Position numbers and translations under genes: made by a program. Shown here in pieces: positions 20,801 to 31,821 of a stretch of DNA of 64,000 bases (positions are counted from its first letter, which is position 1; each line of letters opens with the position of its first letter). Location of the stretch: assembly GCF_003334405.1 (NCBI RefSeq), contig NZ_QOWM01000003.1; one strand, written 5' to 3'. Below the pieces are notes generated by a model. It searched no databases and was not told where the DNA came from. It saw nothing but the letters and a program-made list of their open reading frames with translations. The stretch is from Escherichia coli (lineage in GTDB: Bacteria > Pseudomonadota > Gammaproteobacteria > Enterobacterales > Enterobacteriaceae).

Positions 20801-23633
20801 TACTCTGGTAGGGATGGCTGTTTATGAGCATGGTACTGCTATCAACGACCAGACGGGTGTTATCAATATCAATGTTGGTACTGGTCAGGCGTTTTATAAC
20901 GATGGCACAGGAACAATTGTTAACTATGGTACAATCTGCACTTTCGGCGTGTGCCAATCGGGGAATGAGTACAATAATACAGATGATTTCACCTCACTGA
21001 TCTATACCGGTGGCGATACGATTACACGAAGCGGAGAAACTGTAACGCTAAATAAATCTGCTGCTGTGACTGATAAGCTGGCTGGGAATGTTGTTAATAG
21101 CGGAACGCTTTCCGGTGATCAAATTACGGTATCAAGCGGTCTTCTGGAAAATACCAGCGGTGGCATCATCAATAACTTAGTAAAACTTGACAAGGGTGCC
21201 GTCATTAAAAATGCCGGGGTGATGACGAATAACGTCGATGTTAGCGGTGGAATCCTCAATAATGCCGGAGAAATGACTGCGCAAATTACCATGAATGCTG
21301 GTGCTGATAGTTCGTTAGTGAACAACACCGGAACCATCAATAAAATCGTGCAGAACGCGGGGGTATTCAATAATAGTGGCAGTGTAACAGGGCGGATGAT
21401 GTCGGCTGGCGGGGTCTTTAATAATCAAACTGACGGGGCGATTATGAGAGGTGCTGCGCTGACAGGTACTGCAGTGGCAAATAACGAAGGAACCTGGAAC
21501 CTCGGAAGTAGTAGTGAGGGTAACAACACCGGGATGCTGGAAGTTAATAATAATTCAGCTTTCAATAACCGCGGCGAGTTTATTCTTGATAACGACAAGA
21601 ATGCTGTGCACATCAACCAGTCCGGTACGCTTTATAATACCGGTCACATGAACATCAGTAATTCTTCCCACAACGGAGCCGTTAATATGTGGGGCGGAAA
21701 TGGTCGTTTTATCAATGACGGAACGATTGATGTTTCTGCGAAGTCACTGGTAGTCAGCGCTAATAATGCCGGCGATCAGAATGCCTTCTTCTGGAACCAG
21801 GATAACGGGGTCATCAACTTCGATCACGACAGCGCCAGTGCCGTGAAAGTCACCCACAGCAACTTTATTGCCCAGAATGACGGCATCATGAACATCAGCG
21901 GCACCGGTGCTGTGGCTATGGAAGGTGATAAGAACGCGCAGCTGGTTAACAATGGCACCATCAACCTCGGTACCGCAGGCACTACTGACACGGGTATGAT
22001 CGGTATGCAACTCGATGCCAACGCCACGGCGGATGCGGTAATCGAAAACAACGGCACCATCAATATCTTCGCCAATGACTCGTTTGCATTTAGCGTACTG
22101 GGTACAGTAGGTCATGTGGTTAACAACGGCACGGTGGTGATTGCCGATGGGGTTACGGGTTCTGGACTGATCAAGCAGGGCGACAGCATCAATGTTGAAG
22201 GTATGAACGGTAACAACGGTAATAGCAGCGAAGTGCATTATGGCGACTATACGTTGCCGGATGTGCCGAAGCCCAATACGGTTAGTGTAACGTCGGGAAG
22301 TGATGAGGCTGGTGGCAGCATGAACAACCTCAACGGCTATGTCGTCGGTACCAACGTTAACGGCAGCGCCGGGAAGCTGAAGGTTAACAATGCCAGCATG
22401 AACGGCGTGGAGATTAACACGGGCTTTACCGCTGGTACGGCAGACACCACTGTGAGTTTTGATAACGTAGTGGAAGGTAGCAACCTGACCGACGCTGACG
22501 CCATCACCTCAACGTCCGTGGTATGGACTGCCAAAGGCAGCACCGATGCCAGCGGTAACGTTGACGTCACCATGAGCAAAAATGCCTACACCGATGTGGC
22601 AACAGATGCCTCGGTGAATGACATCGCGAAAGCACTGGATGCGGGTTACACCAACAACGAACTGTTTACCAGCCTGAACGTCGGCACGACTGCTGAACTG
22701 AACAGTGCTCTGAAACAGGTCAGCGGTAGCCAGGCGACCACGGTATTCCGCGAAGCGCGCGTGTTAAGCAACCGCTTTAGTATGCTGGCAGATGCCGCGC
22801 CGAAAGTGGGTAACGGTCTGGCGTTCAACGTTGTCGCGAAAGGCGATCCGCGTGCCGAGTTAGGTAATAATACCGAATACGACATGCTGGCATTGCGTAA
22901 AACTATCGACCTGAGCGAAAGCCAGACGATGAGTCTGGAGTACGGTATCGCTCGTCTCGATGGTGATGGTGCGCAGAAAGCGGGTGATAATGGCGTTACA
23001 GGCGGTTATAGCCAGTTTTTTGGCCTGAAACATCAGATGTCGTTCGATAACGGCATGAACTGGAATAACGCCTTGCGTTACGACGTTCACAACCTTGACA
23101 GCAGCCGCTCGATTGCATTTGGCAACACGAACAAAACGGCTGATACCGACGTGAAACAGCAGTACCTGGAGTTCCGCAGCGAAGGGGTGAAGACTTTCGA
23201 ACCGAGCGAAGGACTGAAGGTTACGCCATATGCGGGTGTAAAACTGCGTCACACACTGGAAGGTGGCTATCAGGAGCGCAATGCCGGAGACTTTAACCTG
23301 AATATGAACAGTGGCAGCGAAACGGCGGTGGACAGCATCGTCGGGCTGAAACTGGACTACGCAGGTAAAGACGGCTGGAGCGCTAGCGCTACGCTGGAAG
23401 GCGGGCCGAACCTGAGCTACGCGAAGAGCCAGCGTACGGCAAGCCTGGCAGGCGCAGGCAGTCAGCACTTTAACGTCGATGACGGTCAGAAGGGCGGCGG
23501 CATCAATAGCCTGACAAGCGTCGGCGTGAAGTACAGCAGCAAAGAAAGTTCGCTGAATCTGGATGCGTACAACTGGAAAGAGGATGGCATCAGCGATAAA
23601 GGCGTGATGCTGAACTTCAAGAAAACGTTCTAA
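17865..23633 (+). CDS. ydbA: giant autotransporter (type Va) adhesin-like protein, uninterrupted
   Basis: 1922-aa ORF; signal peptide MQRKTLLSACIALALSGQGWA; Pro/Asp/His-rich linker; Gly/Asn/Thr-rich beta-helical passenger with tandem repeats; C-terminal beta-barrel ending ...LNFKKTF. Confidence 0.85.
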   Translation: MQRKTLLSACIALALSGQGWAADITEVETTTGEKKNTNVTCPADPGKLSPEELKRLPSECSPLVEQNLMPWLSTGAAALITALAVVELNDDDDHHHRNNSPLPPTPPDDESDDTPVPPTPGGDEIIPDDPDDTPTPPKPVSFNNDVILDKTEKTLTIRDSVFTYTENADGTISLQDSNGRKATINLWQIDEANNTVALEGVSADGATKWQYNHNGELVITGDNATVNNNGKTTVDGKDSTGTEINGNNGKVIQDGDLDVSGGGHGIDITGDSATVDNKGTMTVTDPESMGIQIDGDKAIVNNEGESTITNGGTGTQINGDDATANNNGKTTVDGKDSTGTEINGNNGKVIQDGDLDVSGGGHGIDITGDSATVDNKGTMTVTDPESIGIQIDGDQAIVNNEGESTITNGGTGTQINGNDATANNSGKTTVDGKDSTGTKIAGNIGIVNLDGSLTVTGGAHGVENIGDNGTVNNKGDIVVSDTGSIGVLINGEGATVSNTGDVNVSNEATGFSITTNSGKVSLAGSMQVGDFSTGVDLNGNNNSVTLAAKDLKVVGQKATGINVSGDANTVNITGNVLVDKDKTADNAAEYFFDPSVGINVYGSDNNVTLDGKLTVVSDSEVTSRQSNLFDGSAEKTSGLVVIGDGNTVNMNGGLELIGEKNALADGSQVTSLRTGYSYTSVIVVSGESSVYLNGDTTISGEFPLGFAGVIRVQDKALLEIGSGATLTMQDIDSFEHHGTRTPELTYADSGAKIVNKGTVEIQNLGFAFVTGENTTGINSGTISLLQNGKDPAPSPIVLLATNGGSATNAGTITGKVTEQHSVFNKYSTGTSNSFIFNNDVSSITGLVAQSNSTIINTDSGIIDLYGRGSVGMLAIADSTAENQGKITLDSMWVDANDTTAMRDIASNSAIDFGTGVGVGTDSYSGAGKNATAINQLGGVITIYNAGAGMAAYGASNTVINQGTINLEKNGNYDDSLAANTLVGMAVYEHGTAINDQTGVININVGTGQAFYNDGTGTIVNYGTICTFGVCQSGNEYNNTDDFTSLIYTGGDTITRSGETVTLNKSAAVTDKLAGNVVNSGTLSGDQITVSSGLLENTSGGIINNLVKLDKGAVIKNAGVMTNNVDVSGGILNNAGEMTAQITMNAGADSSLVNNTGTINKIVQNAGVFNNSGSVTGRMMSAGGVFNNQTDGAIMRGAALTGTAVANNEGTWNLGSSSEGNNTGMLEVNNNSAFNNRGEFILDNDKNAVHINQSGTLYNTGHMNISNSSHNGAVNMWGGNGRFINDGTIDVSAKSLVVSANNAGDQNAFFWNQDNGVINFDHDSASAVKVTHSNFIAQNDGIMNISGTGAVAMEGDKNAQLVNNGTINLGTAGTTDTGMIGMQLDANATADAVIENNGTINIFANDSFAFSVLGTVGHVVNNGTVVIADGVTGSGLIKQGDSINVEGMNGNNGNSSEVHYGDYTLPDVPKPNTVSVTSGSDEAGGSMNNLNGYVVGTNVNGSAGKLKVNNASMNGVEINTGFTAGTADTTVSFDNVVEGSNLTDADAITSTSVVWTAKGSTDASGNVDVTMSKNAYTDVATDASVNDIAKALDAGYTNNELFTSLNVGTTAELNSALKQVSGSQATTVFREARVLSNRFSMLADAAPKVGNGLAFNVVAKGDPRAELGNNTEYDMLALRKTIDLSESQTMSLEYGIARLDGDGAQKAGDNGVTGGYSQFFGLKHQMSFDNGMNWNNALRYDVHNLDSSRSIAFGNTNKTADTDVKQQYLEFRSEGVKTFEPSEGLKVTPYAGVKLRHTLEGGYQERNAGDFNLNMNSGSETAVDSIVGLKLDYAGKDGWSASATLEGGPNLSYAKSQRTASLAGAGSQHFNVDDGQKGGGINSLTSVGVKYSSKESSLNLDAYNWKEDGISDKGVMLNFKKTF
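18543..19190 (+). repeat. in-frame tandem repeat, 294-bp unit (98 aa), about 2.2 copies, inside ydbA
   Basis: Unit NNNGKTTVDGKDSTGTEINGNNGKVIQDGDLDVSGGGHGIDITGDSATVDNKGTMTVTDPES... repeats at 18543 and 18837 with near-identical DNA; partial third copy from about 19131. Confidence 0.85.
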
Positions 23634-23653
23634 TTTTTAGCATGTGATCCCTA

Positions 23654-23687
23654 AACCGCAACGCTGATACAGGTTGCGGTTTTTTTA
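23654..23687 (+). terminator. rho-independent terminator of ydbA
   Basis: AACCGCAAC-gctgatacag-GTTGCGGTT followed by TTTTTTT. Confidence 0.65.
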
Positions 23688-23840
23688 TTGCCGGATGTGG
23701 TACGTGACGCGTTTTGTTTTGTGTCTTTCAGGACAATAGAGCAACTCATCCAGTAATCTTGTTTACACCTTCGCATTATTTATCTCTTTTCGTTTCTATA
23801 CTGATTTTTCTTAATCCGTTTTATTACAGGGCAGGGTGCG

Positions 23841-24701
23841 ATGAGCAGCAATACATTTACTCTCGGTACAAAATCCGTTAACCGTCTTGGTTATGGCGCG
23901 ATGCAACTGGCAGGTCCTGGAGTTTTTGGCCCCCCACGAGATCGCCACGTCGCTATAACCGTGCTGCGTGAGGCGCTGGCATTGGGCGTCAATCATATTG
24001 ATACCAGCGACTTTTATGGTCCGCACGTCACCAATCAGATTATCCGCGAAGCGCTTTATCCTTACTCTGACGACCTGACAATTGTCACTAAAATTGGTGC
24101 GCGGCGTGGAGAGGACGCATCCTGGTTGCCCGCATTTTCTCCGGCAGAGCTGCAAAAAGCGGTGCACGATAATCTACGTAATCTCGGGCTGGACGTGCTG
24201 GATGTGGTTAACCTGCGCGTTATGATGGGGGATGGTCATGGCCCAGCGGAAGGATCGATTGAGGCCAGCCTGACCGTGCTGGCAGAGATGCAACAACAAG
24301 GCCTGGTAAAACATATTGGCCTGAGCAACGTCACACCGACGCAGGTTGCAGAGGCGCGCAAGATTGCCGAAATTGTCTGTGTGCAAAACGAATACAACAT
24401 CGCGCACCGTGCTGATGATGCAATGATTGATGCTTTGGCCCACGATGGCATTGCCTACGTGCCGTTCTTCCCGCTCGGGGGCTTTACACCGCTGCAATCG
24501 TCCACACTTTCCGATGTTGCTGCGAGCCTGGGTGCAACACCAATGCAGGTGGCGCTGGCGTGGCTGTTACAGCGTTCACCGAATATTTTGCTGATCCCAG
24601 GGACGTCTTCGGTTGCGCATTTACGGGAGAATATGGCTGCTGAAAAATTGCATCTTTCTGAGGAAGTGTTGTCTACGTTGGATGGTATTTCGCGAGAATA
24701 A
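23841..24701 (+). CDS. ydbC: aldo-keto reductase family NAD(P)-dependent oxidoreductase
   Basis: 286 aa; AKR fold. Confidence 0.85.
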   Translation: MSSNTFTLGTKSVNRLGYGAMQLAGPGVFGPPRDRHVAITVLREALALGVNHIDTSDFYGPHVTNQIIREALYPYSDDLTIVTKIGARRGEDASWLPAFSPAELQKAVHDNLRNLGLDVLDVVNLRVMMGDGHGPAEGSIEASLTVLAEMQQQGLVKHIGLSNVTPTQVAEARKIAEIVCVQNEYNIAHRADDAMIDALAHDGIAYVPFFPLGGFTPLQSSTLSDVAASLGATPMQVALAWLLQRSPNILLIPGTSSVAHLRENMAAEKLHLSEEVLSTLDGISRE

Positions 24702-24711
24702 CGAATATACA

Positions 24712-24746
24712 AAAGGGAAAGATGCATTTCCCTTTTTTTCTTTTTT
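24712..24746 (+). terminator. rho-independent terminator of ydbC
   Basis: AAAGGGAAA-gatgca-TTTCCCTTT followed by a long T-run. Confidence 0.65.
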
Positions 24747-24763
24747 AATGGCATGGAGTGCAT

Positions 24764-27070
24764 ATGTTTAAGGCCAGGAATTGCGGCTGGATACGTTTAC
24801 TGCCCCTGTTTATGCTGAGTCTACCAGTACAGGCGGAACTTCGATGTGTTGCAAATGCAGTTGATATTGAATCATTTTTTTCTGCGGCTACCGCTGAAGA
24901 TAAACAACAAGTTGAACAAGCTATCAACAGTAGCGTGAATCTTGTCCCCTTCGGTTTATCTGCATCGAACTGGAAAGTGCATCGTGGCGATTTAGTGGTA
25001 GAAGGTAATATAGAGAGTAATCAAAAATTGATTGTTCTTGGGAATTTGACAGTCAAAGGTAATATTTCCACTTTCTCTCTTTCTAATCCATGGGTTATTC
25101 TCGGTAACGTGACGGCAACGAATATAGTTGCGGATTCACCACTGTTAATTACCGGTTCGATAAATGCAAGTGGACTGGTATTTATCGACTCATATTACGA
25201 TAATCCGTCTACGATTAAGGGGAGTATTAATGCGCGTGGGATATTTATCAATGACATAATTGCACCTGTTGTTGCGTCTTCGACAAATAGTGAATTCATG
25301 GTCCGTGCGAGTGACAAACATGACACTGAAAATGTCAAAAAAGCGCTGATGATAATAAATCCTGATGCATATTATTGGGGGCTAATTAATGATGAAGATG
25401 CTCTGAAAGAAATTTTTAAGCGAAGCAATATTCGCATGGCAGGGAATGTCTGTAATCAGATGAAAAAAGAAGCGCTGTTTCGCCCTAAGCCTTCTCCTGA
25501 GTTAGTGCAAGAATTGCAAATGCTGGATGAAGGCAAAGTTGCTGCATTTGAAGGACGAGACATTGCGACATTTGATCTTGCCGTAATGCGAACTCTCCCA
25601 AGGCTTAAAGGAATTTCAGCTAACCTACGCAAACAACTTATTAATAGCAATGATGAACAAACGATTGAAAGTATGGCGAGATATATGCCTGACAATGAGA
25701 TTCTGGAGTTGACCGATCAGCAATTGGGTTACCAGCCTGTTGTTCTGGGGTTGCTCGACCGTGAACCGCTCTCTGTCGAAATAATGACGCGAATGAGTCG
25801 TCTACCTGATGGTGTCGGTCCGTTGAATCTTGCGCTACGTGAAAATCTCCCTCTGGATATCGTCATGACTCTGGCGAAAAGAGATTGGGATATGATCATT
25901 CAGGAGCTTTATAAAGATGCGTGGTTATTGCCTGAATCCATTATTGATGGCTATATCCGCAGTGATGATTCCTCTATTCGTCAGGTCGGTGCTGGAGGAC
26001 AACTCACCTACAATCAGGCAATGCAGTTGGCGAACGATTCATCAAACAATGTTGTCACAAGCTTAGCGTTCAAGCTGGCAGAGATGAAACACCATGGTCA
26101 ATTGTTGCGGATGACGCCACAAGAGAGTGACAAAGTTGCAGGCTATTTATACCAAAAATTCGAGAATGACGATGATCTAATACGTGTGTTATTTTTAGCA
26201 TTGCCAGATAACTTACAGTTTAATTTTGTTAAAAGGATGGAGAAAAAATCCCCGGCCTACTTTTGCTGTCGGGATATGCAGGTAATTCACTCTGACGCTG
26301 CTTTACAACGGTTATTGACACGTTTCAACGATCCTGAAGGGTGGAGTAATCTGGCGAAAAATCAGTATCTGAGCACGTCGATGAAACAAAAAATTTGGCA
26401 ACGTGCTTTATCGCATCGGAAAAATAATCCGAAAGCAGATTCAGATGCATATGAAACCAGCGCTGATATGATTTTGTCTGAGCTGATTAGCCACGGCGAA
26501 GTTGATGACCAGATGCTATTAAATGCCACCGCCCTGATACGTTCGGACGACTGGGACTTTTTAGAGAGTGCATTAATTAGTTGGGATAATTTACCCGCTG
26601 TTGTTCTCAAGGAATTACAGCAAAACACGCCACGCAATGATATTTGGGCGAAGTTTTTTCTGAGGCAGGAAAACAGTTCCCGTGCGCAGGTTGACGAAGC
26701 GTTACGTGTTTATTATGCACTAGACCCCGATGCGTTAGCACAACTGGATGTACTGGCAAAACAACCGGATCGTATATGGTGGAGTACACTGGCGAAAAGC
26801 AATCTCACATTTTTCAAGTTCGGCGCACTTAACAACCGCCACACACCGCCTGCAGTACTGGCGGCAGAAATTGATCCCGAGTGGTGGATTGTGGCGATGA
26901 ATAATCCCCGTTTTCCAGTTGATGTATTAAAGGCGAGGCTGAAACGTGATCCTTTGCTGGCGTTAGAGCTTGTTAACCCTGAACTGGATTTAGTCCGCCA
27001 GCTGGCGCTTAACGGTAAGACGCGCGCAATACGGGAACAAGCGATGAGAAAACTTGATGAGTTGTATTGA
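24764..27070 (+). CDS. ydbD: large secreted repeat protein (DUF2773-type; beta-helical N-terminal region, alpha-repeat C-terminal region)
   Basis: 768-aa form from first ATG 24764 (ORF-track start 24758 is GTG); signal peptide MFKARNCGWIRLLPLFMLSLPVQA; lower GC than flanks. Confidence 0.8.
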   Translation: MFKARNCGWIRLLPLFMLSLPVQAELRCVANAVDIESFFSAATAEDKQQVEQAINSSVNLVPFGLSASNWKVHRGDLVVEGNIESNQKLIVLGNLTVKGNISTFSLSNPWVILGNVTATNIVADSPLLITGSINASGLVFIDSYYDNPSTIKGSINARGIFINDIIAPVVASSTNSEFMVRASDKHDTENVKKALMIINPDAYYWGLINDEDALKEIFKRSNIRMAGNVCNQMKKEALFRPKPSPELVQELQMLDEGKVAAFEGRDIATFDLAVMRTLPRLKGISANLRKQLINSNDEQTIESMARYMPDNEILELTDQQLGYQPVVLGLLDREPLSVEIMTRMSRLPDGVGPLNLALRENLPLDIVMTLAKRDWDMIIQELYKDAWLLPESIIDGYIRSDDSSIRQVGAGGQLTYNQAMQLANDSSNNVVTSLAFKLAEMKHHGQLLRMTPQESDKVAGYLYQKFENDDDLIRVLFLALPDNLQFNFVKRMEKKSPAYFCCRDMQVIHSDAALQRLLTRFNDPEGWSNLAKNQYLSTSMKQKIWQRALSHRKNNPKADSDAYETSADMILSELISHGEVDDQMLLNATALIRSDDWDFLESALISWDNLPAVVLKELQQNTPRNDIWAKFFLRQENSSRAQVDEALRVYYALDPDALAQLDVLAKQPDRIWWSTLAKSNLTFFKFGALNNRHTPPAVLAAEIDPEWWIVAMNNPRFPVDVLKARLKRDPLLALELVNPELDLVRQLALNGKTRAIREQAMRKLDELY

Positions 27071-27240
27071 TCCACAACGTAATGTTTTTTAACTATCTGA
27101 TTAATTGGGGATAATCATTCCTGACAGTGAGTCCCCAATACCTTGATATATTCTGAATTTTTAATGAAACGGCGTGTTGCGATATCTCCGTCAGGGGAAT
27201 TGATGCACCATAGCGCAAACCGAATTATCAAGGATTGATA

Positions 27241-27846
27241 ATGACGCTCTACCAGATAAAACCGCTCTTTCAGTCGCTGTTAAGGCCGACGATGTTTTGG
27301 CTTTATAAGCACCACGTTACAGCGAATCACATCACTCTTGCTGCACTGGCGCTTTCTCTTCTTACCGGATTGCTGTTGATGTTGGCGGCACAACCCATCC
27401 TCTTTTTGCTATTGCCCATCGTGCTTTTTATCCGTATGGCGCTCAATGCGCTGGATGGCATGTTGGCGCGTGAGTGCAACCAGCAAACACGTCTGGGGGC
27501 GATTTTGAATGAGACTGGCGATGTTATTTCCGAAATTGCGCTCTATTTACCATTTTTATTTTTACCGGAAAGTAACGCATCACTCGTGATACTCATGTTA
27601 TTTTGCACCATATTGACCGAGTTTTGCGGTTTACTCGCGCAGACGATTAACGGTGTTCGCAGTTATGCCGGTCCATTTGGCAAAAGCGATCGCGCGTTAA
27701 TATTTGGTCTGTGGGGTCTGGCCGTTGCCATTTATCCACAGTGGATGCAGTGGAATAATCTTTTATGGAGCATTGCTTCAATTCTGCTTCTCTGGACTGC
27801 GATTAATCGTTGTCGGAGTGTGCTTCTTATGAGCGCTGAAATATAA
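27241..27846 (+). CDS. ynbA: CDP-alcohol phosphatidyltransferase-family inner-membrane protein (PgsA-like)
   Basis: 201 aa from ATG 27241; motif NALDGMLARECNQQTRLGAILNETGD resembles PgsA [26 protein letters not shown] but with Asn at two Asp positions; multiple TM helices. Confidence 0.85.
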   Translation: MTLYQIKPLFQSLLRPTMFWLYKHHVTANHITLAALALSLLTGLLLMLAAQPILFLLLPIVLFIRMALNALDGMLARECNQQTRLGAILNETGDVISEIALYLPFLFLPESNASLVILMLFCTILTEFCGLLAQTINGVRSYAGPFGKSDRALIFGLWGLAVAIYPQWMQWNNLLWSIASILLLWTAINRCRSVLLMSAEI

Positions 27847-28742
27847 TGCTGGAAAAATCTCTGGCAACACTTTTCGCGTTGTTAATTTTAGCAACGCTGA
27901 TAAACCGTTTTCTGCTATGGCGGTTACCGGAGAGAAAAGGGGGTGAGGTTACATTACGTATTCGTACCTGGTGGGGCATCGTCATTTGTTTTTCAATGGT
28001 GATTTCAGGTCCACGCTGGATGACGTTGACGTTTTTTGCGCTGATAAGTTTTCTGGCATTGAAAGAATATTGTACGCTTATATCTGTACATTTTCCGCGT
28101 TGGTTATATTGGGGTATTCCTCTTAACTATTTGCTTATCGGTTTTAATTGCTTTGAGCTGTTTCTGTTATTTATACCTTTGGCTGGGTTTCTGATATTAG
28201 CCACCGGGCAAGTTTTAGTGGGTGACCCCTCTGGTTTTCTGCATACCGTGAGCGCCATTTTTTGGGGCTGGATAATGACCGTTTTCGCCTTGAGTCATGC
28301 CGCCTGGTTATTAATGTTGCCAACCACAAATATCCAGGGCGGGGCGTTACTGGTGTTATTTCTTTTGGCATTAACCGAGTCAAACGATATTGCACAGTAT
28401 TTATGGGGAAAATCCTGCGGCAGAAGAAAAGTGGTCCCTAAAGTCAGCCCGGGAAAAACATTGGAAGGTCTGATGGGCGGCGTCATCACCATCATGATTG
28501 CGTCACTGATTATCGGACCGTTACTGACACCGCTAAATACATTACAGGCATTATTAGCGGGTTTGTTAATTGGTATTAGTGGTTTTTGCGGCGATGTCGT
28601 GATGTCAGCCATCAAACGAGATATTGGTGTTAAAGATAGCGGAAAACTATTGCCAGGACATGGCGGACTCCTTGACAGGATTGACTCATTAATTTTCACC
28701 GCTCCGGTATTTTTTTATTTTATACGCTACTGCTGTTACTGA
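27846..28742 (+). CDS. ynbB: CdsA-like phosphatidate cytidylyltransferase paralogue
   Basis: 298 aa; exact CdsA C-terminal signature SAIKRDIGVKDSGKLLPGHGGLLDRIDS; start overlaps ynbA stop by 1 nt. Confidence 0.85.
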   Translation: MLEKSLATLFALLILATLINRFLLWRLPERKGGEVTLRIRTWWGIVICFSMVISGPRWMTLTFFALISFLALKEYCTLISVHFPRWLYWGIPLNYLLIGFNCFELFLLFIPLAGFLILATGQVLVGDPSGFLHTVSAIFWGWIMTVFALSHAAWLLMLPTTNIQGGALLVLFLLALTESNDIAQYLWGKSCGRRKVVPKVSPGKTLEGLMGGVITIMIASLIIGPLLTPLNTLQALLAGLLIGISGFCGDVVMSAIKRDIGVKDSGKLLPGHGGLLDRIDSLIFTAPVFFYFIRYCCY

Positions 28743-28757
28743 AGGAAAATAGAGAAA

Positions 28758-31821
<3,064 letters not shown>

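What the first reader, a model, noticed from the sequence alone, without database searches (positions are those of the whole stretch)
24764..27070. YdbD: large secreted repeat protein with lower GC, adjacent to the ynb operon
The 768-aa protein has a signal peptide, an N-terminal region of short beta-strand repeats (VVEGNIESNQKLIVLGNLTVKGNIS...) and a C-terminal region of alpha-helical repeats. Its codon composition looks more AT-rich than its neighbours. Its function is poorly defined and its position directly upstream of ynbABCD may be functionally linked.
Basis: partly seen in the sequence, partly recalled or inferred. Interest (0 to 1): 0.3.

Follow-up and report, generated by a model that had tools for sequence, protein, structure and literature searches.

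The report
E. coli ydbD: exported solenoid protein
This is the already catalogued E. coli gene ydbD, a rarely expressed and often deleted gene for an exported protein made of a small beta-helix plus a long helical-repeat arm; its function is still unknown, and its position next to the ynb lipid genes looks like an accident of Escherichia genome history.

Summary
Window 24764-27070 (+) is E. coli ydbD (768 aa), which RefSeq names 'DUF2773 domain-containing bactofilin'. It has a Sec-type signal peptide. Residues ~67-185 form a three-sided beta-helix and residues ~247-768 form an all-helical solenoid. Its GC (0.434) and GC3 (0.408) are the lowest of any long ORF in the window.

New here:
- The helical part is a leucine-rich-repeat-variant (LRV) array. 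The family profile matches 1LRV at E 7e-22, and Pfam DUF2773 is simply its last repeats.
- About 40 full-length relatives (15-31% identity) exist outside Escherichia, and most have signal peptides.

The proposed link to ynbABCD is not supported:
- The ynb cluster is conserved in Citrobacter, Salmonella bongori and Serratia without any ydbD relative.
- Distant ydbD relatives sit in unrelated contexts.
- At least 450 E. coli genomes keep ynbABCD but lack ydbD.
- ynbA has its own published, 5'-RACE-mapped promoter.

The most likely role is a non-enzymatic periplasmic binding or scaffold protein. This is a known gene of modest interest.

The parts
24711..24746 (+). Intrinsic-terminator-like hairpin (10-bp stem AAAAGGGAAA/TTTCCCTTTT) plus T tract downstream of pdxI. 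It ends 17 nt before the ydbD ATG.
   Evidence: Consensus scan. RNA fold -13.9 kcal/mol, z -1.7. No sigma-70 or sigma-E consensus promoter in the 560 bp upstream of ydbD.
24753..24756 (+). Shine-Dalgarno GGAG, 7 nt upstream of the ydbD start codon.
   Evidence: Read directly from the sequence.
24764..27070 (+). ydbD coding sequence (768 codons plus TGA).
   Evidence: ORF list and translation. 100% identical to RefSeq ydbD, 'DUF2773 domain-containing bactofilin'. dN/dS 0.18 against E. whittamii.
24764..24841 (+). Sec-type signal peptide, aa 1-26 (predicted cleavage VQA|E).
   Evidence: n/h/c regions read from the sequence. pLDDT <50 for residues 1-25. Signal-peptide-like N-termini in at least 28 of 40 family members.
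24962..25318 (+). Three-sided beta-helix domain, aa ~67-185, with a bactofilin-like fold. Conserved W-x-x-H-x-G-D-L motif at its start.
25319..25501 (+). Linker, aa 186-246: two to three helices and a low-confidence loop (aa 207-223).
   Evidence: AF2 pLDDT and secondary structure. Highest dN/dS among the structured parts, 0.27.
25502..27067 (+). Alpha-helical solenoid, aa 247-768: about 20 leucine-rich-repeat-variant (LRV) type repeats.
26825..27067 (+). Pfam DUF2773 (aa 688-768), which is the last repeats of the solenoid.
   Evidence: PF10971 E 2.3e-45. The region is helical-repeat in the model and continuous with the LRV array.
27071..27240 (+). ydbD-ynbA spacer. It holds the published ynbA promoter and BglJ-RcsB site. 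The hairpin at 27104-27139 has no T tract.
   Evidence: PMC3950696: lacZ fusions of the intergenic fragment, 5'-RACE and site mutagenesis. No terminator by scan. Hairpin -17 kcal/mol, z -1.3, not significant.

Best explanation
The feature is the E. coli gene ydbD (b1407). It encodes a Sec-exported, probably periplasmic, non-enzymatic protein with three parts: a cleaved signal peptide, a compact three-sided beta-helix 'head' (aa ~67-185, bactofilin-like in fold), and a ~520-residue alpha-solenoid 'arm' of about 20 leucine-rich-repeat-variant repeats, whose last repeats are what Pfam calls DUF2773.

Shown here: gene identity, domain layout, conservation of export signals across the family, purifying selection, AT-rich composition, patchy presence in E. 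coli, and the lack of conserved linkage to ynbABCD.

Inferred: solenoids of this kind offer long binding surfaces and nothing catalytic is detectable. I therefore think the protein most likely acts as a binding or scaffold protein for a partner in the cell envelope (a protein or an envelope polymer). The conserved beta-helix would be the functionally critical end, serving either as a docking or an oligomerisation module.

It is an accessory gene already present in the ancestor shared by E. coli, E. albertii and E. whittamii. It is kept nearly silent: there is no recognisable promoter, the pdxI terminator abuts its ribosome-binding site, and published expression is under 1 ppm. It is repeatedly lost.

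Its adjacency to ynbABCD is a lineage-specific juxtaposition, not an operon-level functional unit.
For: Identity.

Export: signal peptide in YdbD and in at least 28 of 40 relatives.

No enzyme or defence signature: NCBIfam, PDB sequence, PADLOC and PHROGs searches were all empty.

The same beta-helix module is fused to other protein-binding repeats (LRR, ankyrin) in other proteins.

Real gene under constraint: dN/dS 0.18 overall and 0.08 in the beta-helix.

Silent and accessory:
- GC3 0.408.
- No promoter consensus, and a terminator at 24711-24746.
- Under 1 ppm by ribosome profiling (PMC5053530).
- Three independent deletion types plus IS insertions.

Envelope connection: 3.9-fold induction on sigma-E overproduction (PMC2731931).

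No ynb linkage.
Against: - No binding partner, localisation data or phenotype was obtained here, so 'scaffold' is an inference from fold class only.
- The signal peptide was judged by rule, not by a trained predictor, and about 8 of 40 relatives seem to lack one.
- The conserved W-x-x-H-x-G-D motif could be a ligand, metal or catalytic site that I cannot evaluate.
- Annotations call it 'involved in detoxification of methylglyoxal', which this model does not explain.
- No sigma-E promoter was found upstream, so the envelope-stress induction may be indirect.
- Tn-seq flagged both ydbD and ynbB, and no terminator separates ydbD from ynbA, so some coupling is not excluded.
Confidence: 0.55

Rival explanations
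1. YdbD is an accessory component of the ynbABCD pathway. The ynb genes encode a CDP-alcohol phosphatidyltransferase, a CdsA paralogue, a hydrolase/methyltransferase and a PAP2/dual-specificity phosphatase. In this reading ydbD is co-transcribed with them and acts in the periplasm on, or with, their lipid or glycolipid product.
For: - Same strand, 170-bp spacer and no canonical terminator.
- The order pdxI-ydbD-ynbABC is kept in E. whittamii.
- ydbD and ynbAB share an AT-rich composition.
- YdbD and YnbB were both listed among six barely expressed genes important for fitness (PMC5053530).
- YnbB is implicated in synthesis of the envelope glycolipid MPIase (PMC6362211).
Against: - The ynb cluster is conserved in Citrobacter, S. 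bongori and Serratia with no YdbD relative within 8 kb, and YnbC orthologues are far more widespread than YdbD.
- Distant YdbD relatives are never next to ynb-like genes in the five loci examined.
- At least 450 E. coli genomes keep ynbABCD without ydbD, including a clean ydbD-only deletion.
- ynbA has its own mapped promoter.
- The shared Tn-seq signal could be polarity, or (my inference) an artefact of a silenced AT-rich region.
Confidence: 0.1
2. YdbD is a periplasmic polymer-forming protein. Its bactofilin-like beta-helix would stack end to end, as cytoplasmic bactofilins do, and build a 'periskeletal' filament decorated with LRV arms.
For: - The beta-helix superposes on BacA and TtBac over nearly their whole length at 1.9-2.6 Å.
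- RefSeq names it a bactofilin.
- There is a marginal Pfam Bactofilin hit (E 0.0015 for the domain alone).
- The beta-helix is the most constrained part.
Against: - Sequence membership fails: 0 of 40 relatives reach E<=0.001, and the domain profile against BacA in the PDB gives E 1.6.
- The segments flanking the helix are structured (pLDDT 75-93 for aa 31-66 and 78-90 for aa 178-205). From my knowledge of published bactofilin structures, bactofilins have disordered tails there, so the ends may be capped.
- Expression of about six copies per cell is hard to reconcile with a filament.
Confidence: 0.1
3. YdbD is a methylglyoxal resistance or detoxification factor, as several database names state.
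For: Database and source names read 'protein involved in detoxification of methylglyoxal' or 'induced by methylglyoxal'. From my own knowledge, these trace back to a 2007 genetic screen for methylglyoxal susceptibility, which I could not read here.
Against: - There is no similarity to any glyoxalase, aldo-keto reductase or other enzyme family.
- The protein is an exported repeat protein, whereas, from general knowledge, methylglyoxal detoxification is cytoplasmic.
- Any effect would more plausibly be indirect, through envelope permeability, or (an untested thought) a neighbourhood effect of pdxI, an aldo-keto-reductase gene 62 bp upstream.
Confidence: 0.08
4. ydbD is a functionless, decaying remnant of an old horizontal acquisition. 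It is silenced and on its way out of the genome.
For: - Lowest GC3 in the window.
- No promoter found and negligible expression.
- Absent or truncated in about 29% of complete E. coli genomes, with IS1/IS5 insertions and several deletion types.
- Many fragmentary versions in databases.
Against: - The full-length reading frame is kept in E. coli, E. albertii and E. whittamii at 80-88% identity.
- dN/dS is 0.18 overall and 0.08 in the beta-helix.
- The architecture is conserved in relatives at 15-31% identity, with a confident fold.
Confidence: 0.15

Closest known systems
Bactofilins (Pfam PF04519; BacA of Caulobacter crescentus, PDB 2N3D; Thermus thermophilus bactofilin, PDB 6RIA)
   Different: - Sequence similarity is marginal (E 0.05 and 0.0015; 0 of 40 relatives significant; PDB profile E 1.6).
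- The protein carries a signal peptide, as do most relatives.
- The helix has structured flanks and a 520-aa solenoid, not short disordered tails.
- Polymerisation is untested.
Leucine-rich repeat variant (LRV) proteins (PDB 1LRV from Azotobacter vinelandii; Pfam PF01816 and PF25591)
   Different: - E. coli YdbD itself is too diverged to hit the LRV models. Only the family profile shows the relationship.
- There are about 20 repeats with a 26-residue period. From my memory of the 1LRV structure, that protein has eight 24-residue repeats and an N-terminal Fe-S domain.
- No Fe-S domain was seen in YdbD, which has a beta-helix and a signal peptide instead.
- LRV proteins have no established function either.
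MinC C-terminal domain and FapA beta-solenoids
   Same: Weak sequence echoes of the H-x-G-D-[LI]-x-[IV]-x-G rung motif: NCBIfam MinC E 0.012, PDB 4v02 E 0.55, and Pfam FapA and MinC_C.
   Different: None of these is significant. Those are cytoplasmic division or flagellar proteins.
ynbABCD lipid-metabolism cluster (the YnbB CdsA paralogue is linked to glycolipid MPIase synthesis; PMC6362211)
   Same: Immediate neighbour on the same strand, similarly AT-rich (ynbAB), similarly low expression and similarly dispensable in E. coli populations.
   Different: The cluster has a separate promoter. It is conserved in other genera without ydbD. ydbD relatives occur elsewhere without ynb genes.

Membership tests
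E. coli ydbD (b1407) orthologue group | Near-identical sequence at the pdxI-ydbD-ynbA locus | tested here: met
   100% nucleotide identity over 2701 bases to K-12-like and NCTC86 chromosomes, with the CDS annotated as ydbD.
Pfam DUF2773 (PF10971) | Profile match to the 81-residue C-terminal model | tested here: met
   E 2.3e-45, aa 688-768, model 1-81/81. 6 of 40 relatives also match.
Bactofilin (PF04519) | Significant sequence match to the bactofilin/DUF583 profile | tested here: not met
   E 0.05 (full length) and 0.0015, 19 bits (domain alone). 0 of 40 and 0 of 22 relatives at E<=0.001. Domain profile against BacA 2n3d, E 1.6.
Bactofilin (PF04519) | Compact three-sided beta-helix fold of about six windings | tested here: met
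   [not shown]
Bactofilin (PF04519) | Cytoplasmic protein with short disordered tails flanking the beta-helix | tested here: not met
   N-terminal Sec-type signal peptide, conserved in at least 28 of 40 relatives. Structured flanks and a 520-aa solenoid.
Bactofilin (PF04519) | Nucleotide-independent end-to-end polymerisation | not testable with these tools
   Only monomer prediction without coordinates was available. This needs AF-Multimer or EM of purified protein.
Leucine-rich repeat variant (LRV; PF01816/PF25591; 1LRV) | Sequence match to the LRV repeat | tested here: met
   Family profile against 1LRV, E 6.7e-22, three overlapping stretches. LRV_2 in 9 and LRV in 7 of 40 relatives. YdbD alone gives no LRV hit, so membership is at superfamily or profile level.
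Leucine-rich repeat variant (LRV; PF01816/PF25591; 1LRV) | Right-handed superhelix of short helix pairs with a ~24-residue period | tested here: met
   [not shown]
Sec-exported (periplasmic) proteins | N-terminal signal peptide with n/h/c regions and small residues at -3 and -1 | tested here: met
   K3, R5 and R11; LLPLFMLSLPV; V-Q-A|E. Relatives end in AxA-like motifs just before a conserved W. This was a rule-based reading only; no SignalP and no experiment.
ynbABCD operon / functional unit | Conserved gene neighbourhood across genera | tested here: not met
   No ydbD relative (tblastn E<=1e-3) within 8 kb of ynb clusters in Citrobacter, S. bongori and Serratia. No ynb relatives near five distant ydbD relatives.
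ynbABCD operon / functional unit | Co-occurrence within E. coli | tested here: not met
   3834 genomes with ydbD against 4284 with ynbABCD at >=80% coverage. A clean ydbD-only deletion occurs in strain S1-KEN-07-A.
ynbABCD operon / functional unit | Single transcription unit | tested here: inconclusive
   ynbA has its own 5'-RACE-mapped promoter (PMC3950696). No terminator was found between ydbD and ynbA, so read-through cannot be excluded.

The most novel reading that the evidence does not exclude
YdbD and its roughly 40 distant relatives could define an undescribed class of exported, bactofilin-fold proteins. In this reading the beta-helix polymerises or docks in the periplasm and the LRV arm recruits envelope partners, giving a periplasmic counterpart of the cytoplasmic bactofilin scaffolds that is switched on under envelope stress.
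Probability: 0.1. Interest if true: 0.6.

Novelty: already known. Interest (0 to 1): 0.2.

Why it matters
ydbD is one of the uncharacterised 'y-genes' of E. coli K-12. This analysis gives it a concrete anatomy: signal peptide, bactofilin-fold beta-helix and about 20 LRV repeats, with DUF2773 being the last of those repeats. That places it in the envelope. It also shows that the name 'bactofilin' is justified by fold only, and removes a tempting but unsupported guilt-by-association link to the ynb lipid genes. The practical value is better annotation and a focused set of experiments. It does not open or close a major question.

Tried and rejected
- Word-indexed homologue search found only Escherichia sequences at >=80% identity. 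The exhaustive HMMER search was needed to find distant relatives.
- The genome-contig scan failed with the 40-sequence alignment. With five sequences it returned only E. whittamii, so taxonomic names for the distant relatives remain sparse: one Pseudomonas MAG and Halopseudomonas in AFDB.
- Sequence searches of YdbD against the PDB, NCBIfam, PADLOC and PHROGs gave nothing significant. I rejected the MinC hit (E 0.012) as a generic beta-helix echo.
- The Rfam scan of 23500-28000 found nothing.
- Promoter scans found no sigma-70 or sigma-E consensus upstream of ydbD.
- The hairpin after ydbD (27104-27139) is not distinguishable from shuffles and lacks a T tract, so I do not call it a terminator.
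- Hydrophobic autocorrelation did not detect the beta-helix period.
- Megablast of the P0039 gene against E. coli genomes found nothing. tblastn of P0039 against 'plasmids' only re-found ydbD on chromosomes mislabelled as plasmids.
- Supplementary tables of PMC3950696 are not held.
- I considered an immunity-protein or defence role because the gene is patchy, AT-rich and made of repeats. Nothing supported it: there is no toxin neighbour and no PADLOC hit.
- I considered an AF2 'tandem-linker' dimer test for polymerisation. I dropped it because it could not be interpreted without a bactofilin control and PAE output.
Full report
**What is there**

The window is Escherichia coli DNA. The stretch 24600-27300 is 100% identical to several complete E. 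coli chromosomes. The ORF at 24764-27070 (+) is annotated there as ydbD, 'DUF2773 domain-containing bactofilin'. It lies between pdxI (ydbC) and ynbA, followed by ynbB, ynbC, ynbD, azoR and hrpA. The start is ATG 24764, with GGAG 7 nt upstream, and the product is 768 aa.

**Composition**

ydbD has GC 0.434 and GC3 0.408, the lowest of all reading frames of at least 250 codons in a window whose mean GC is 0.500. The first 300 codons are the most AT-rich, with GC3 0.31-0.36. Neighbour GC3 values are 0.530 (pdxI), 0.515 (ynbA), 0.448 (ynbB), 0.488 (ynbC) and 0.531 (ynbD). The claim 'more AT-rich than its neighbours' is therefore true, but the AT-rich patch continues into ynbA/ynbB.

**Protein anatomy**

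- **Signal peptide.** The N-terminus MFKARNCGWIRLLPLFMLSLPVQA|E has the three regions of a Sec signal peptide.
- **Model quality.** An AlphaFold2 model built on a 40-sequence family alignment is confident (mean pLDDT 86.8, pTM 0.76). Low confidence is limited to residues 1-25 and a loop at 207-223.
- **Beta-helix.** Residues 70-181 form 5-6 rungs of three short strands each.
- **Solenoid.** Residues 247-767 form about 40 short helices.
- **Sequence relationship to bactofilins is marginal.** Pfam Bactofilin scores E 0.05 for the full protein and 0.0015 for the isolated domain. None of 40 relatives reaches E<=0.001. A profile of the domain scores E 1.6 against BacA in the PDB.
- **Identity of the solenoid.** A profile of the family matches the leucine-rich repeat variant structure 1LRV at E 6.7e-22. 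Pfam LRV_2, LRV or HEAT_2 models hit many relatives. The family hydrophobicity profile has a significant 26-residue period. AFDB neighbours are HEAT/LRV proteins.
- **DUF2773.** Pfam DUF2773 (aa 688-768, E 2e-45) is simply the end of this repeat array.
- **Traces of repetition in the DNA.** There is a 30-nt direct repeat spaced 54 nt, which is one 18-residue rung, and a 31-nt repeat within the solenoid.
- **A shortened natural allele.** A 711-aa allele seen on 88 contigs lacks 55 residues of the beta-helix in frame, about three rungs.

**Family and export**

A word-indexed search found only Escherichia proteins at >=80% identity, from E. coli and E. albertii. E. whittamii has an 86% identical copy. 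An exhaustive HMMER search of 1.84 billion representatives found 157 proteins at E<=0.001, including about 40 full-length relatives of 709-819 aa at 15-31% identity.

Most of these relatives begin with an obvious signal peptide that ends in an AxA-like motif just before a conserved tryptophan. The two closest relatives, P0039 and P0041, gain one when an upstream in-frame ATG is used. By my count at least 28 of 40 are exported. About eight seem to lack a signal peptide.

The beta-helix module, with its conserved W-x-x-H-x-G-D-L start, also occurs in shorter proteins fused to LRR or ankyrin repeats. Some of these have signal peptides and some do not.

Searches of NCBIfam, PDB sequences, PADLOC and PHROGs found no enzyme, defence or phage family.

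**Is it a real, constrained gene?**

Yes. Against E. whittamii, dN/dS is 0.18 overall and 0.08 in the beta-helix. For comparison, pdxI is 0.06, ynbA 0.17, ynbB 0.12, ynbC 0.12 and hrpA 0.01.

**Expression signals**

A canonical terminator-like hairpin with a T tract (24711-24746; -13.9 kcal/mol) follows pdxI and ends 17 nt before the ydbD ATG. No sigma-70 or sigma-E consensus promoter was found in the 560 bp upstream.

Published data fit a nearly silent gene:
- Under 1 ppm of protein synthesis, about six copies per cell (PMC5053530).
- 3.9-fold induction on sigma-E overproduction (PMC2731931).
- Listed as a target gene of the transcription factor YciT in a ChIP-exo study (bioRxiv 10.1101/2021.06.10.447994).

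**Is it linked to ynbABCD?**

Against a link:
1. YnbC orthologues at 69-78% identity occur in Serratia, Citrobacter, Salmonella, Klebsiella, Buttiauxella, Vibrio fluvialis and Snodgrassella. In the three loci examined (a contig carrying the Citrobacter rodentium protein, S. bongori, and Serratia), the cluster is ynbA-ynbB-(PlsC-like acyltransferase)-ynbC-ynbD-orf135. In two of them it lies between ydbH-ynbE-ydbL and azoR-hrpA. No YdbD relative lies within 8 kb in any of the three.
2. Five distant YdbD relatives lie in five different contexts, none with ynb-like genes.
3. In 5426 complete E. coli genomes, ydbD is present at >=80% coverage in 3834 and ynbABCD in 4284.
4. One lineage has a clean deletion that leaves about 10 codons from the start of ydbD, a few codons from its end, and an intact ynbA upstream region. 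Other strains carry an IS1-mediated deletion of ydbD through the 5' part of ynbC, or a deletion from pdxI to ynbD.
5. ynbA has its own promoter in the 170-bp spacer. It is activated by BglJ-RcsB, and its start site was mapped by 5'-RACE (PMC3950696).

For a link:
- No terminator was detected between ydbD and ynbA.
- The gene order is kept within the genus.
- ydbD and ynbB were both flagged in one Tn-seq fitness screen.

I conclude that the adjacency is specific to Escherichia. Read-through transcription remains possible but is not evidence of shared function.

**Most likely function**

The shown facts are export, a beta-helix head, a long LRV solenoid, no catalytic signature, purifying selection that is strongest on the head, and near-silent, dispensable status. 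From these I infer a non-enzymatic binding or scaffold protein of the cell envelope (confidence about 0.55).

The rivals are:
- a ynb pathway component (0.10);
- a periplasmic bactofilin-like polymer (0.10);
- a methylglyoxal detoxification factor, as databases state (0.08);
- a functionless, decaying acquisition (0.15).

**Comparison and novelty**

The gene and its domain labels are already in RefSeq and UniProt. This analysis adds four points:
- The helical part is an LRV array that includes DUF2773.
- The bactofilin label holds for the fold but not for sequence, cell compartment or flanking regions.
- A sparse exported family exists beyond Escherichia.
- The ynb association is not conserved.

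This is useful annotation-level knowledge, not a surprise. I give it interest 0.2 and class it as 'already known'. The most novel reading still open is a periplasmic bactofilin-type scaffold, with probability about 0.1.

Noticed in passing
window 25040-25222 (ydbD aa ~93-153); protein P0013: A 711-aa ydbD allele seen on 88 contigs has an in-frame loss of 55 residues inside the beta-helix (about three 18-residue rungs) plus a 2-residue deletion. The solenoid length therefore varies naturally.
   Followed up: partly
window 27846-31821 (ynbB-ynbD) compared with L010-L012: The E. coli ynb cluster lacks two genes found in the Citrobacter, S. bongori and Serratia clusters: the PlsC-like acyltransferase between ynbB and ynbC, and the ~135-aa ORF after ynbD. 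E. whittamii additionally lacks ynbD. The E. coli version looks like a reduced form of a six-gene lipid cluster.
   Followed up: partly
window 17865-23633 (+): The ydbA autotransporter gene is intact here (1922 aa), as in strain NCTC86. In the K-12-like strain 3A it is split by IS2 and IS30.
   Followed up: partly
L002 1-4033 and L014 1-6451: RefSeq names the >2300-aa ydbA-like autotransporter upstream of pdxI 'EntS/YbdA MFS transporter' (WP_089502719.1, WP_338903216.1). This looks like a gene-name confusion (ydbA/ybdA) propagated into product names.
   Followed up: no
[not shown]
   Followed up: partly
L005 4581-9307 (Pseudomonas sp. MAG): Two YdbD-family paralogues (764 and 768 aa) lie in tandem next to an ABC-transporter and glycosyltransferase polysaccharide-type cluster.
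   Followed up: no
AFDB A0A2X5QEV0 and Q32JE4; L003 8001-10241: Some E. coli strains carry a second, 26%-identical family member (759 aa), and Shigella dysenteriae carries a 302-aa protein, possibly a truncated version. The closest distant relative, P0039, sits between sprT and galP in an enterobacterial contig. Megablast of that gene found nothing in the complete E. coli genomes.
   Followed up: partly
window 24742-24760 and 27158-27176: A 19-nt motif (TTTTTAATGxxAxGGxGTG, 79% identical) occurs just upstream of the ydbD start and again in the ynbA upstream spacer. It may be chance.
   Followed up: no
window 24711-24764: The pdxI terminator hairpin and T tract abut the ydbD ribosome-binding site, leaving no room for a conventional promoter. 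ydbD transcription would need terminator read-through or an unusual start.
   Followed up: partly
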